A program made the translations under genes and the position numbers. A stretch of 64,000 nucleotides of DNA from Escherichia coli (GTDB lineage Bacteria; Pseudomonadota; Gammaproteobacteria; Enterobacterales; Enterobacteriaceae). Positions within the stretch are counted from its first letter, which is position 1; every line of letters starts with the position of its first letter. The DNA is taken from the NCBI RefSeq assembly GCF_003334405.1, contig NZ_QOWM01000016.1; one strand, given 5' to 3'. The notes beneath the pieces were generated by a model, which was given only the letters and a program-made list of their open reading frames with translations, did not search any database and was not told the origin of the DNA. Shown in pieces: positions 8,365 through 10,591 of this stretch.

Positions 8365-9132
8365 TTAAGCCTGTTTAGCCGCTTCTGCAGCTTTAACGAT
8401 TACTGCGAAGGCGTCAGCTTTCAGAGAAGCACCACCAACCAGCGCGCCGTCGATATCCGGCTGAGCAAACAGTTCTGCAGCGTTAGACGCGTTTACAGAG
8501 CCGCCGTACTGAATGATCACTTGTTCAGCGATGTTAGCGTCAACTTTAGCGATGTGGTCACGGATGAATTTGTGAACAGCCTGTGCCTGAGCCGGAGTTG
8601 CAGATTTGCCAGTACCGATTGCCCATACAGGTTCGTAAGCGATAACCGCACCTTCGAATGCCGCAGCACCCTGAGTTTTCAGTACCGCGTCGATCTGACG
8701 TGCGCAAACTTCTTCAGTTTTGCCCGCTTCATTTTCAGCTTCGGTTTCACCGATGCACAGAACCGGAGTCAGGCCCTGCTCTTTCAGCACCGCGAATTTT
8801 TTCGCGATCAGTTCGTCAGATTCTTTGTGGTAAGTACGACGTTCAGAGTGACCGATGATGATGTACTGTGCGCCGATGTCTTTCAGCATAGCAGCAGAGG
8901 TTTCACCGGTGAATGCGCCGGACAGGTTCAGGTCCACGTTTTGCGCACCCAGCATGATGTGGCTGCCTTCAGCTTCGCGCTTCGCCATATCGATATACAT
9001 TTCCGGTGGTGCGATTGCAACCGCACAGCCAGCAACACCTGCCAGCTCTTTACGCAGGTTAGAAACCAGCTCGTGAACCATGTGGCGGCTGCCGTTCAGT
9101 TTCCAGTTACCCATCACTAAAGGATGTCGCAT
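8365..9132 (-). CDS. tpiA: triosephosphate isomerase
   Basis: ORF 255 aa [23 protein letters not shown]... Confidence 0.98.
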
Positions 9133-9239: not shown

Positions 9240-9839
9240 TCATTTATTCAAACCTTCAAGCGATTCAGATAGCGCCAGCTTAATCGGTTCAACAGCGAAG
9301 GTCAGCCCCTTTTCGCCGTTGTCCGCGACAACATAACGCAGTGCACCTTCTGTCTCGGTGTAATAACGTTTGTTTTTCCCCGCCGTTAGTAGCGACTGCA
9401 GTTTTTTCTGGCTTTGTGTTTTGGTCATTAATGGGGTGAGTGTGCGGATCACCGCTGCCATGTATTCCTGAGCTTTCGCTTTCGCGGCTTTTTGCTCTGG
9501 CCCCTGGATGGGTAGCCAGGTCATTTGAATGCTTTTGATTTTTAAGGTACCGCGCTCCAGCGCTGTAGAAGCATACAAGTTCTCATTAATTTTACTTGCA
9601 GCACGAGTGAGATTGGCTTTGTCGGGACTGCTGTCGATGGCACGAAATTCGTTCAGTGGCAGGCTGGGATTCTGGCTGTTAAAGTCTTCTCGAAACTGGC
9701 TGATGGAGAGATCGAAAGTAGGGGCTCCAGCCAGCAGATAAGGCGCGGTCGTTGCCGTATCTGGTGTTTGTGCATGCGCCGCTGTTGTAACGGTTAATGC
9801 AGAACATAAGAGAAAAAACAGCGTACACCCTGGCTTCAT
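9240..9839 (-). CDS. yiiQ: uncharacterized secreted protein YiiQ (DUF1454 family)
   Basis: ORF 199 aa with N-terminal signal peptide (MKPGCTLFFLLCSALTVTTAAHA); name by synteny and recall. Confidence 0.85.
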   Translation of the reverse strand: MKPGCTLFFLLCSALTVTTAAHAQTPDTATTAPYLLAGAPTFDLSISQFREDFNSQNPSLPLNEFRAIDSSPDKANLTRAASKINENLYASTALERGTLKIKSIQMTWLPIQGPEQKAAKAKAQEYMAAVIRTLTPLMTKTQSQKKLQSLLTAGKNKRYYTETEGALRYVVADNGEKGLTFAVEPIKLALSESLEGLNK

Positions 9840-9939: not shown

Positions 9940-10380
9940 ATGACCATACAGCAATGGTTATTCTCATTTAAAGGGCGTATTGGACGCCGTGATTTCTGGA
10001 TTTGGATAGGCCTGTGGTTCGCAGGCATGCTGGTGCTTTTCTCACTGGCGGGTAAGAATCTACTCGATATTCAGACCGCGGCGTTTTGCCTTGTGTGCTT
10101 GCTCTGGCCAACAGCGGCAGTAACTGTTAAGCGCTTGCATGATCGCGGGCGTTCCGGCGCATGGGCATTTCTGATGATTGTGGCGTGGATGCTGCTGGCG
10201 GGTAACTGGGCGATTTTACCGGGTGTCTGGCAATGGGCGGTGGGGCGTTTTGTCCCGACGTTGATTCTGGTGATGATGCTTATCGATCTTGGTGCGTTTG
10301 TTGGCACACAAGGCGAAAATAAATATGGTAAAGATACTCAGGATGTGAAGTATAAAGCCGACAATAAATCAAGTAATTAA
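9940..10380 (+). CDS. yiiR: uncharacterized inner-membrane protein YiiR (DUF805 family)
   Basis: ORF 146 aa, several hydrophobic helices. Confidence 0.85.
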   Translation: MTIQQWLFSFKGRIGRRDFWIWIGLWFAGMLVLFSLAGKNLLDIQTAAFCLVCLLWPTAAVTVKRLHDRGRSGAWAFLMIVAWMLLAGNWAILPGVWQWAVGRFVPTLILVMMLIDLGAFVGTQGENKYGKDTQDVKYKADNKSSN

Positions 10381-10591
10381 CCTTTAATATATCTCTTACT
10401 GCTATTTTTTTCCGGGATTGTTATTTCCACGATGCAAATGACAATACCCGGAAAATCCTTCTGAACTCTTCACCTTAAGCAATATCAAAAAAAATGGTAA
10501 TCCATAAGATCATTACTTGTTTGTTCTTCCCTTAACGGCGCATTATTCTTAAGTCGTAATCGACAGAGAGGCGAATATACAGAGGTGCCCT

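What the first reader, a model, noticed from the sequence alone, without database searches (positions are those of the whole stretch)
10407..10455. 49-nt imperfect palindrome in the yiiR-yiiS intergenic region
ttttccggg-attgt ... acaat-a-cccggaaaa can fold into a 9+5 bp stem with a 19-nt loop (or form a cruciform), but it is flanked by a T-run on the 5' side, not the 3' side, so it is not a canonical intrinsic terminator for yiiR in either orientation. It may be a protein-binding site or an RNA structure in the yiiS-uspD leader.
Basis: seen in the sequence. Interest (0 to 1): 0.25.

Follow-up and report, generated by a model that had tools for sequence, protein, structure and literature searches.

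The report
Conserved RNA hairpin capping yiiR transcripts
The palindrome between the E. coli genes yiiR and yiiS is a real, evolutionarily maintained RNA hairpin with a mapped RNA end just after it, so it is most likely an ordinary U-poor transcript-end hairpin, on DNA that acid-stress regulators also bind.

Summary
The palindrome is real. Its arms are TTTTCCGGG (10408-10416) and CCCGGAAAA (10447-10455), and the sequence between them also pairs. The + strand RNA forms a stem of about 19 bp (-22.8 kcal/mol, z = -6).

All 5,426 complete E. coli genomes carry it. So do E. albertii, E. fergusonii and two unnamed Escherichia-like lineages, wherever yiiR precedes yiiS.

Substitutions keep the + strand RNA fold. 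There is one compensatory U-A to C-G switch. Five independent stem changes give G·U pairs and none gives A·C. A divergent lineage has seven substitutions yet keeps the energy (P = 0.009).

Published Term-seq (Adams 2021) places a + strand RNA 3' end at window 10462, 7 nt after the stem. No U-tract follows; the next 30 nt are C-rich and G-poor.

My best reading is a U-poor 3'-end-forming or protecting hairpin for transcripts leaving yiiR, of the kind Dar and Sorek described. It sits just upstream of the yiiS-uspD stress promoters.

The same DNA is occupied in vivo by GadX (ChIP-exo 10403-10423), AppY (summit 10414) and YdeO. An annotated transcription start at about 10342 also places the hairpin in a yiiS-uspD leader. 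Operator and attenuator roles therefore remain open.

This is an ordinary new example of a known kind.

The parts
10408..10426 (+). Left arm of the hairpin. The outer part is UUUUCCGGG (10408-16) and the inner part is AUUGUUAUUU (10417-26). The conserved core is CCGGG(A)UUGUUAUU.
10427..10435 (+). Apical loop region CCACGAUGC, with a weak 2-bp cap. It varies in sequence and length between lineages. E. coli polymorphisms occur at 10429 and 10435.
10436..10455 (+). Right arm: AAAUGACAAU, then a bulged A at 10446 (A/G polymorphic), then CCCGGAAAA.
10462..10462 (+). Mapped RNA 3' end (U00096.3 position 4112837), reading ...CCCGGAAAAUCCUUCU-3'. It lies 7 nt after the last paired A.
   Evidence: Adams 2021 Term-seq supplementary files 1 and 3. 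The coordinate offset comes, and the sequence printed in the table matches the window.
10456..10485 (+). C-rich, G-poor tract after the hairpin (C 9, G 2 in 30 nt). It is rut-like in composition and overlaps the -35 of a sigma-E-type promoter match.
   Evidence: sequence
10403..10423 (.). GadX ChIP-exo footprint P41 (NC_000913.2 positions 4110801-4110821), covering the T-run and most of the left arm. The AppY ChIP-seq summit at 10414 falls inside it.
   Evidence: Seo 2015 Supplementary Table 3; Derdouri 2023 Table 1. The v2-to-v3 shift of 1977 comes from my memory of v2 gene coordinates and is consistent with peaks shared by the two papers.
10342..10342 (+). Annotated yiiS-uspD transcription start, inferred from the 'distance to TSS +71' entry. 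It lies inside the end of yiiR and would make the hairpin +67 to +114 of a 250-nt leader.
   Evidence: An RpoS genomic-SELEX peak is listed at the same coordinate, 4110740. The filter used for Adams's supplementary file 3 requires a dRNA-seq TSS within 200 nt upstream of the 3' end.
9940..10380 (+). yiiR coding sequence (DUF805). The hairpin starts 28 nt after its stop codon.
10592..10891 (+). yiiS coding sequence (DUF406), first gene of the yiiS-uspD operon.

Best explanation
The palindrome acts as an RNA stem-loop on the + strand. It marks and protects the 3' end of transcripts leaving yiiR: the yiiR mRNA and any short transcripts that start at the promoter in the last 40 nt of yiiR.

RNA polymerase transcribes through it. 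Steady-state RNA then ends 7 nt past the stem. Because there is no U-tract, this is not classical intrinsic termination. The most likely route is that transcription stops downstream, with Rho acting on the C-rich, G-poor stretch, or through weak hairpin-assisted release at UCCUUCU. The 3'-to-5' exonucleases then trim back to the hairpin.

The element thereby stabilises yiiR mRNA. It also partly insulates the stress-controlled yiiS-uspD promoters that begin right after it.

Shown here or in published data: the structure, its conservation with structure-preserving substitutions, and the mapped 3' end.
Inferred: Rho or exonuclease involvement, and the insulating role.
For: - Stability: the hairpin is strong and non-random (-22.8 kcal/mol, z = -6.06). 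It folds as an independent domain within the 269-nt leader context.
- Distribution: it is present in 5,426 of 5,426 complete E. coli genomes, with only 3-4 haplotypes. It is also present in E. albertii, E. fergusonii and two unnamed Escherichia-like lineages. Every version folds on the + strand (-16.6 to -22.8 kcal/mol).
- Structure counts: on a structural alignment 87.8% of cells pair, against 32-57% when the partners are slid. One pair switches U-A to C-G with a U·G intermediate.
- Strand: five independent single-sided changes in the core stem are all G·U on the + strand. None is A·C, which would be G·U on the - strand.
- Divergent lineage L002: seven substitutions leave the + strand energy at -22.6 kcal/mol. 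Random sets of seven give a mean of -11.7 kcal/mol (P = 0.009). The same test on the - strand gives P = 0.087.
- Within E. coli: polymorphisms fall in the loop, the bulge or a wobble-preserving position.
- RNA end: a Term-seq 3' end lies 7 nt after the stem on the + strand.
- Fit to the known class: no U-tract, no upstream A-tract, and C 9 to G 2 in the next 30 nt. These are the features Dar and Sorek 2018 describe for protective stem-loops of Rho-dependent transcripts.
- Independent regulation: YdeO overexpression induces yiiS and uspD but not yiiR.
Against: - The formal covariation statistics are weak. There are only 8 distinct sequences and one pair with changes on both sides, and 59 of 500 shuffles reach the observed covariation score.
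- The 3' end is a low-count peak (score 1172), found in only one of the three growth-condition sheets.
- Adams's Rho-termination table lists no region between 4110491 and 4113576, so Rho involvement has no support.
- An annotated transcription start upstream at about 10342 means that at least some transcripts must read through the hairpin to express yiiS-uspD. It therefore cannot be an efficient terminator.
- The 3' end could belong to that leader transcript rather than to yiiR mRNA.
- Three AraC-family regulators occupy the same DNA in vivo.
- The outer U4/A4 pairs and the pyrimidine tail are not conserved outside E. coli and E. albertii.
Confidence: 0.5

Rival explanations
1. It is a cis-regulatory leader or attenuator. 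The hairpin lies in the 5' untranslated region of yiiS-uspD transcripts that start at the promoter inside the end of yiiR (about 10342). It causes conditional premature 3' ends at +121, which tunes how much of that transcription reaches yiiS-uspD.
For: - Seo 2015 lists the GadX peak at +71 from the yiiS-uspD TSS, which places the TSS near 10342.
- An RpoS-holoenzyme SELEX peak lies inside yiiR at the same coordinate.
- Adams 2021 kept this 3' end in the list of ends 'upstream of an ORF'. By their filter that requires a dRNA-seq TSS within 200 nt upstream.
- The + strand RNA structure is maintained.
Against: - No alternative anti-terminator pairing was found; the hairpin is a stand-alone domain in the leader fold.
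- No Rfam family matches.
- The hairpin is absent wherever yiiS has a different upstream neighbour (Klebsiella, Kluyvera, Edwardsiella). The proximal yiiS promoter block is conserved in those genomes, so the hairpin travels with yiiR and not with yiiS.
- Further promoters, a sigma-E-type match and a proximal one, lie downstream of the hairpin and bypass it.
Confidence: 0.2
2. It is a DNA operator. The palindrome, or its left arm together with the T-run, is the binding site through which the AraC-family acid-stress regulators GadX/GadW, YdeO and AppY act on yiiS-uspD. On this reading the RNA hairpin is incidental.
For: - The GadX ChIP-exo footprint covers 10403-10423, with signal-to-noise 43.
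- The AppY ChIP-seq summit is at 10414.
- YdeO gives a ChIP-chip peak and an EMSA shift on the yiiS upstream region, and overexpression induces yiiS-uspD.
- The YdeO box is described as an inverted ATTTCA with a 9-21 nt spacer. ATTTCC-N21-GGAAAA lies inside the palindrome.
- The best match to the GadX/W consensus in the region (16 of 20) is the left arm, 10414-10433.
Against: - The motif match is not significant: P = 0.16 in shuffles, and 22 equally good sites occur in the window.
- The AppY 8-mer motif was reported absent from the yiiS peak.
- A gadX knockout had no effect on yiiS-uspD expression (the 'N' entry).
- The YdeO effect on a yiiS-lacZ reporter was only about 1.5-fold.
- An operator model does not predict that all five one-sided stem changes would be G·U on one strand. 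It also does not predict that seven substitutions would leave the RNA energy unchanged.
- The T-run and the CTG upstream of it vary between lineages.
- AppY is prophage-encoded, so it cannot account for conservation across Escherichia species. This last point is an inference.
Confidence: 0.2
3. It is a functionless relic. The palindrome would be left over at the junction where the yiiS-uspD module was joined to the end of yiiR, for example a remnant of an older convergent yiiR/fpr terminator or REP-like hairpin.
For: - In Citrobacter freundii, C. koseri and Enterobacter ludwigii, yiiR and fpr are convergent neighbours without yiiS-uspD. REP-type hairpins lie between them in the two Citrobacter genomes; in E. 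ludwigii the two genes abut with no spacer.
- Homology with the yiiS upstream regions of other genera starts only at about 10487, so the hairpin lies in Escherichia-specific junction DNA.
Against: - Structure-preserving substitution patterns appear across at least five lineages.
- A mapped RNA end lies immediately behind the hairpin.
- The element occurs once per genome, so it is not a repeat family.
Confidence: 0.05

Closest known systems
Protective 3' stem-loops at the steady-state ends of Rho-dependent or processed transcripts (Dar and Sorek 2018, NAR; PMC6061677)
   Same: It is a stable stem-loop with the RNA 3' end immediately downstream. It has no U-rich tail and no upstream A-tract. The downstream sequence has more C than G. 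It sits in the 3' untranslated region shortly after a stop codon.
   Different: Rho dependence and exonuclease trimming have not been shown for this site. No Rho region was called here in Adams 2021. The stem is unusually long and A/U-rich (19 bp with only 5-6 G-C pairs). The same DNA is also bound by transcription factors.
Canonical intrinsic (Rho-independent) terminator
   Same: There is a hairpin followed by an RNA 3' end 7 nt after the stem base, which is the usual distance.
   Different: The tail is UCCUUCU (or AAAAUCCUUCU if the A·U extension is not counted), not a U-tract. The T-run lies on the wrong, 5' side. The tail is not conserved in E. fergusonii or in the L084 and L086 lineages. 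The consensus terminator scan finds nothing.
REP/BIME extragenic palindromes
   Same: It is an intergenic palindrome downstream of a gene that can act as an exonuclease barrier. In Citrobacter, REP elements occupy the equivalent position after yiiR.
   Different: It occurs once per genome and has no REP consensus (GCCGGATG...). It is A/T-rich.
Operators of AraC/XylS-family acid-resistance regulators (GadX/GadW 20-bp motif, YdeO box, AppY sites)
   Same: In vivo occupancy by GadX, AppY and YdeO overlaps the left arm. A/T-rich, ATTTC-like elements are arranged as an inverted repeat.
   Different: The arms are far longer than a typical AraC-family site. Motif matches are at chance level. The evolutionary pattern preserves RNA pairing rather than DNA sequence. 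No regulatory effect of GadX was detected.

Membership tests
Canonical intrinsic terminator | Stable G+C-containing stem-loop | tested here: met
   -22.8 kcal/mol, z = -6.06; CCGGG/CCCGG forms the stem base.
Canonical intrinsic terminator | U-tract of 7-8 nt directly 3' of the stem | tested here: not met
   The sequence after the stem is AAAAUCCUUCU, or UCCUUCU if the A·U extension is counted as stem. The terminator scan gives no site here. The tail is not conserved in relatives.
Canonical intrinsic terminator | RNA 3' end 7-9 nt after the stem | tested here: met
   The published Term-seq end at window 10462 lies 7 nt after A10455.
Protective stem-loop of Rho-dependent or processed transcripts (Dar and Sorek 2018) | Steady-state 3' end immediately downstream of a stable stem-loop that lacks a U-rich tail and an upstream A-tract | tested here: met
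   class features are taken.
Protective stem-loop of Rho-dependent or processed transcripts (Dar and Sorek 2018) | More C than G in the sequence downstream (rut-like) | tested here: met
   C 9 to G 2 in 10456-10485, and C 23 to G 11 in the first 100 nt.
Protective stem-loop of Rho-dependent or processed transcripts (Dar and Sorek 2018) | Read-through when Rho is inhibited with bicyclomycin | tested here: inconclusive
   Adams 2021 supplementary file 2 lists no Rho termination region between 4110491 and 4113576. That dataset covers only LB at OD 0.4, where this 3' end was not detected.
Protective stem-loop of Rho-dependent or processed transcripts (Dar and Sorek 2018) | Longer 3' tails in pnp or rnb exonuclease mutants | not testable with these tools
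   The supplementary tables of Dar and Sorek 2018 are not held.
Structured RNA element under selection | Compensatory or structure-preserving substitutions in relatives | tested here: met
   - One pair switches U-A to C-G through U·G.
- 87.8% of cells pair, against 32-57% when slid.
- Five G·U changes and no A·C changes occur in the core stem.
- The seven-substitution test gives P = 0.009.
- The shuffle control is not significant (59 of 500), because only 8 sequences are available.
Rfam RNA families | Covariance-model match | tested here: not met
   Nothing overlaps 10408-10455 even at E up to 10.
REP/BIME repeat | Multi-copy family with the REP consensus | tested here: not met
   One place per genome in 5,426 genomes with the sensitive blastn mode. 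The sequence does not resemble the Citrobacter REP elements found at the same position.
GadX/GadW operator | In vivo occupancy by GadX | tested here: met
   Published ChIP-exo peak P41 corresponds to window 10403-10423. This is a literature result, and the coordinate conversion relies on a shift of 1977 that I recalled from memory.
GadX/GadW operator | Match to the AKGKCTGWTWTTWWYMYVAK motif | tested here: inconclusive
   The best match is 16 of 20 at 10414-10433. P = 0.16 in shuffles, and the CTG core is absent.
GadX/GadW operator | Expression change when the regulator is deleted | tested here: not met
   Seo 2015 lists no causal relationship for yiiS-uspD. This is a literature result.
YdeO box | Inverted repeat of ATTTCA with a 9-21 nt spacer | tested here: inconclusive
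   ATTTCC-N21-GGAAAA matches 9 of 12 positions and lies inside the palindrome. The figure showing the box the authors chose for yiiS is not held.
Leader attenuator | Transcription start upstream and a premature 3' end before the ORF | tested here: met
   The TSS at about 10342 is inferred. The 3' end lies at -130 from yiiS. All of this comes from published tables.
Leader attenuator | Mutually exclusive alternative structure or a known effector | tested here: not met
   The hairpin is a stand-alone domain in the 269-nt leader fold, and no competing pairing was seen.

The most novel reading that the evidence does not exclude
The hairpin is a conditional attenuator in the leader of yiiS-uspD transcripts that start inside yiiR. 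AraC-family acid-stress regulators (GadX, YdeO, AppY) bind the DNA that encodes its 5' arm. That binding would change RNA 3'-end formation or read-through, by acting as a roadblock or by altering polymerase pausing. One site would then couple transcription-factor occupancy to RNA-level control.
Probability: 0.06. Interest if true: 0.55.

Novelty: new member of a known kind. Interest (0 to 1): 0.25.

Why it matters
It assigns a likely role to an uncharacterised 'orphan' Term-seq 3' end in E. coli K-12. It adds a clean example of a U-poor, evolutionarily maintained 3' hairpin.

It also shows how the yiiR / yiiS-uspD junction is organised. A transcript-end hairpin is followed directly by stacked stress promoters. 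Binding sites for acid-stress regulators overlap the DNA that encodes the hairpin.

For anyone studying uspD or yiiS regulation, reporter constructs and ChIP peaks in this spacer need to be read with the RNA element in mind. It does not open a new class of mechanism.

Tried and rejected
- Rfam scan at permissive E-values: nothing at the site.
- Consensus promoter and terminator scan: no terminator. Only a weak minus-strand promoter-like match lies inside the palindrome, at chance level.
- MAFFT alignment of the hairpins misaligned the E. fergusonii right arm by one column. I replaced it with a hand-made structural alignment, padded with N, which the tool kept column for column.
- Looking for the hairpin upstream of yiiS in other genera: in Klebsiella, Kluyvera and Edwardsiella yiiS has other upstream neighbours and no hairpin, so those loci could not add covariation.
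- Looking downstream of yiiR in Citrobacter and Enterobacter: yiiS-uspD is absent. REP-type hairpins are present in the two Citrobacter genomes, and in E. ludwigii yiiR and fpr abut. There is no homologue of this hairpin.
- First metagenome pattern scan aimed at non-coli lineages: no hits. The second scan returned only E. coli and E. albertii variants.
- Four extra YiiS variants turned out to be E. coli with sequencing errors.
- SMRT-Cappable-seq supplements do not mention these genes. The Thomason 2015 TSS paper is not held. The Dar and Sorek supplements are not held.
- The YdeO paper's primer table gives the same sequence for YIIS-LF and YIIS-LR, so the EMSA probe limits could not be recovered.
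- GAD-box (GadE) similarity of the left arm is 13 of 20, and the mirrored right arm scores the same. Seo 2015 reports no GadE peak here. I rejected this as uninformative.
- The AppY 8-mer motif is absent, as the authors themselves reported.
- A riboswitch-prediction paper that mentions yiiS refers to a different locus.

Full report
LOCUS. The window is E. coli K-12-like DNA. Gene order is tpiA (8365-9132, -), yiiQ (9240-9839, -), yiiR (9940-10380, +), yiiS (10592-10891, +), uspD (10918-11346, +), then fpr and glpX on the - strand. Window coordinate plus 4,102,375 gives the U00096.3 coordinate.

OBSERVATION. The repeat finder gives perfect 9-nt arms: TTTTCCGGG at 10408-10416 and CCCGGAAAA at 10447-10455. 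As + strand RNA it forms 19 consecutive pairs with one bulged A (10446) and a small cap. The energy is -22.8 kcal/mol, z = -6.06, and 0 of 200 shuffles fold as well. The - strand gives -21.2 kcal/mol and z = -3.98. With DNA parameters both strands have z of about -5.5. By raw energy the hairpin is in the best 3% of all 60-nt windows of the 64-kb window, although it is only about 40% G+C. Seven T precede it, and AAAATCCTTCT follows it. The terminator scan finds nothing here, and no Rfam family matches even at E = 10.

DISTRIBUTION IN E. COLI. All 5,426 complete genomes hold the element once. Of these, 2,624 are identical over 76 nt, about 1,640 differ at 1-2 positions and 1,163 differ at 4 positions. 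The haplotypes I fetched differ at the bulge (10446 A/G), at loop positions 10429 and 10435, at one stem position (10438 A to G, turning U-A into U·G), and outside the hairpin. I saw no E. coli polymorphism that breaks a stem pair.

DISTRIBUTION IN OTHER LINEAGES. Loci found through YiiS show the hairpin wherever yiiR precedes yiiS. These are a divergent record labelled 'E. coli' (L002), E. albertii (L003, L108), E. fergusonii (L082, L083) and two unnamed lineages whose YiiS is 81-82% identical (L084-L086). In Klebsiella, Kluyvera and Edwardsiella yiiS has other upstream genes and no hairpin, yet a proximal block from about 10487 to 10552 is conserved. In Citrobacter freundii, C. koseri and Enterobacter ludwigii, yiiR and fpr are convergent neighbours without yiiS-uspD. 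REP-type hairpins lie between them in the two Citrobacter genomes, while in E. ludwigii the genes abut. The hairpin therefore lies in Escherichia-specific junction DNA and travels with the yiiR-yiiS adjacency.

IS THE STRUCTURE MAINTAINED, AND ON WHICH STRAND? Every lineage's version folds on the + strand, at -16.6 to -22.8 kcal/mol. E. coli, L002 and E. albertii all lie between -22.2 and -22.8 despite many substitutions.

On a hand-made structural alignment (A3), 87.8% of cells pair, against 32-57% when the partners are slid. Seven pairs never vary. One pair (columns 19-44) switches U-A to C-G, with U·G in a third lineage. The shuffle control is not significant: 59 of 500 shuffles reach the covariation score. 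With only eight sequences, three of them near-identical, that is expected.

My own tally of the core stem finds five independent one-sided changes. All five are G·U on the + strand and none is A·C, which would be G·U on the - strand. With equal prior odds that is about p = 0.03, one-sided.

K-12 and L002 differ at seven positions in the 48 nt: two form the compensated pair, one makes a wobble, and four are unpaired. The + strand energy stays at -22.6 kcal/mol. Random sets of seven substitutions with the same mix of transitions and transversions give -11.7 ± 4.2 kcal/mol, so P = 0.009. On the - strand the energy drops from -21.2 to -17.8 kcal/mol, P = 0.087.

The outer U4/A4 pairs and the tail sequence are not conserved. 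E. fergusonii has AUAG-CCGGG...CCCGG-AAAAAACGCC. L084 has ...CCCGG-AGCCUCGC. The conserved unit is the core CCGGG(A)UUGUUAUU / AAURAYRAU-CCCGG stem, acting as + strand RNA.

TRANSCRIPT ENDS. Adams et al. 2021 (PMC7815308) list a curated + strand 3' end at 4112837 in supplementary files 1 and 3. The printed context is CCGGGATTGTTATTTCCACGATGCAAATGACAATACCCGGAAAATCCTTCT|GAACTCTTCA. That is window 10462, 7 nt after the last paired A. It is classed 'orphan' only because it lies 82 nt from the yiiR stop codon, beyond their 50-nt limit. It has a low score (1172). It appears in only one of the three condition sheets, and by its position in the file that is the third sheet, probably M63 glucose. No Rho-termination region is listed nearby. 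The 30 nt after the stem have C 9 and G 2.

These features are the ones Dar and Sorek 2018 describe for the protective stem-loops that cap Rho-dependent transcripts: a stable stem-loop, an immediate 3' end, no U-tail, no upstream A-tract, and more C than G downstream. The 7-nt distance also fits weak hairpin-driven release at UCCUUCU. Because that tail is not conserved, I take the hairpin itself to be the selected part.

PROMOTERS AROUND THE HAIRPIN. Seo et al. 2015 list their GadX peak at +71 from the yiiS-uspD transcription start. I checked their sign convention on slp and gadW. That places the start at NC_000913.2 position 4110740, which is window 10342, inside the end of yiiR. Shimada 2017 list an RpoS-holoenzyme SELEX peak at the same coordinate inside yiiR. 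Adams's filter for supplementary file 3 kept the 3' end only if a dRNA-seq start lay within 200 nt upstream. Some transcripts therefore probably begin about 120 nt before the 3' end and carry the hairpin as a leader.

Downstream of the hairpin I see GAACTC-N16-TCAAA (10463-10489), a good sigma-E-type promoter match judged against the consensus as I recall it. yiiS is a known sigma-E regulon member. I also see a conserved TTGTTC-N17-TATTCT (10521-10549).

The conversion from v2 to v3 coordinates (+1977) rests on my memory of the v2 coordinates of glpX and glpK. It is consistent with peaks shared between the v2 and v3 papers.

PROTEIN BINDING. The GadX ChIP-exo footprint P41 corresponds to 10403-10423, with signal-to-noise 43 and no expression change in the gadX knockout. 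The AppY ChIP-seq summit at 4112789 corresponds to 10414, and the authors did not find their 8-mer motif in this peak. YdeO gives a ChIP-chip peak and an EMSA shift on the yiiS upstream region. Its overexpression induces yiiS and uspD about 5-fold by RT-qPCR, raises a lacZ reporter about 1.5-fold, and leaves yiiR unaffected.

The best match to the GadX/W consensus in the region is the left arm (16 of 20), but this is at chance level: P = 0.16, with 22 equal sites in the window. A YdeO-box-like ATTTCC-N21-GGAAAA lies inside the palindrome. Occupancy of this DNA in K-12 is therefore well documented. An operator model, however, does not predict the strand-specific wobble pattern or the preserved RNA energy.

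VERDICT. The most likely reading (about 0.5) is a + strand RNA hairpin that forms or protects the 3' end of transcripts leaving yiiR. It partly insulates the stress-controlled yiiS-uspD promoters. It is a new example of the known class of U-poor 3' stem-loops.

The rivals are a leader attenuator for the distal yiiS-uspD promoter (about 0.2), an operator for AraC-family regulators (about 0.2; this is not exclusive of the RNA role) and a neutral junction relic (about 0.05). Interest is low to moderate.

Noticed in passing
window 10463-10489: GAACTC-N16-TCAAA starts 1 nt after the mapped RNA 3' end. It is a close match to the sigma-E promoter consensus (GGAACTT-N16-TCAAA/TCTGA, recalled from memory). 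yiiS-uspD is a known sigma-E regulon member and is used as a sigma-E reporter (PMC2731931, PMC6941253). The -35 part is not conserved in E. albertii, E. fergusonii or L002, and one E. coli haplotype has GAGCTC.
   Followed up: partly
window 10487-10552: This block upstream of yiiS is conserved from Escherichia to Klebsiella, Kluyvera and partly Edwardsiella. It contains an A-run, the inverted repeat GTAAT-N10-ATTAC (10497-10516) and TTGTTC-N17-TATTCT (10521-10549). It is probably the ancestral yiiS promoter with an activator site. The consensus promoter scan misses it.
   Followed up: partly
window 10451-10458; loci L090 (NZ_LR898868.1) and L092 (NZ_CP061530.1): Two unrelated E. coli genomes carry IS1 inserted at the 3' foot of the hairpin, within a few bases of each other and in opposite orientations. 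This suggests a local IS1 target hot spot.
   Followed up: partly
loci L099, L100, L101 compared with window 9940-12097: In Citrobacter freundii, C. koseri and Enterobacter ludwigii, yiiR and fpr are convergent neighbours and yiiS-uspD is absent. REP elements lie between them in the two Citrobacter genomes, and in E. ludwigii the genes abut. In E. coli the yiiS-uspD pair sits exactly in that gap, with only 4 bp between uspD and fpr. yiiS-uspD therefore looks like an insertion/deletion module with a patchy distribution.
   Followed up: partly
window 11225 (- strand) and 11421 (+ strand): Adams 2021 Term-seq lists a strong - strand 3' end at 4113600, inside uspD and antisense to it, which is probably the end of fpr mRNA. 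It also lists a + strand end at 4113796 inside fpr, which is probably the end of the yiiS-uspD transcript. The convergent transcripts would then overlap by about 200 nt.
   Followed up: no
window 10686-10720: A terminator-like site lies inside the yiiS coding sequence on the + strand: GCTTTTTTGCCACCCGCGAAGAAGC followed by AGAGTCTTTT.
   Followed up: no
locus L002 (NZ_JAATUR010000039.1), about 135-190 nt upstream of yiiS: This record is labelled E. coli and has 98% YiiS identity and an identical promoter block. Yet it differs at 7 of 48 hairpin positions and in the next 20 nt. It shares ATCGT/ACGAT with E. albertii. It may be a small recombined segment or come from a cryptic-clade genome. None of the 5,426 complete E. 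coli genomes has this variant.
   Followed up: partly
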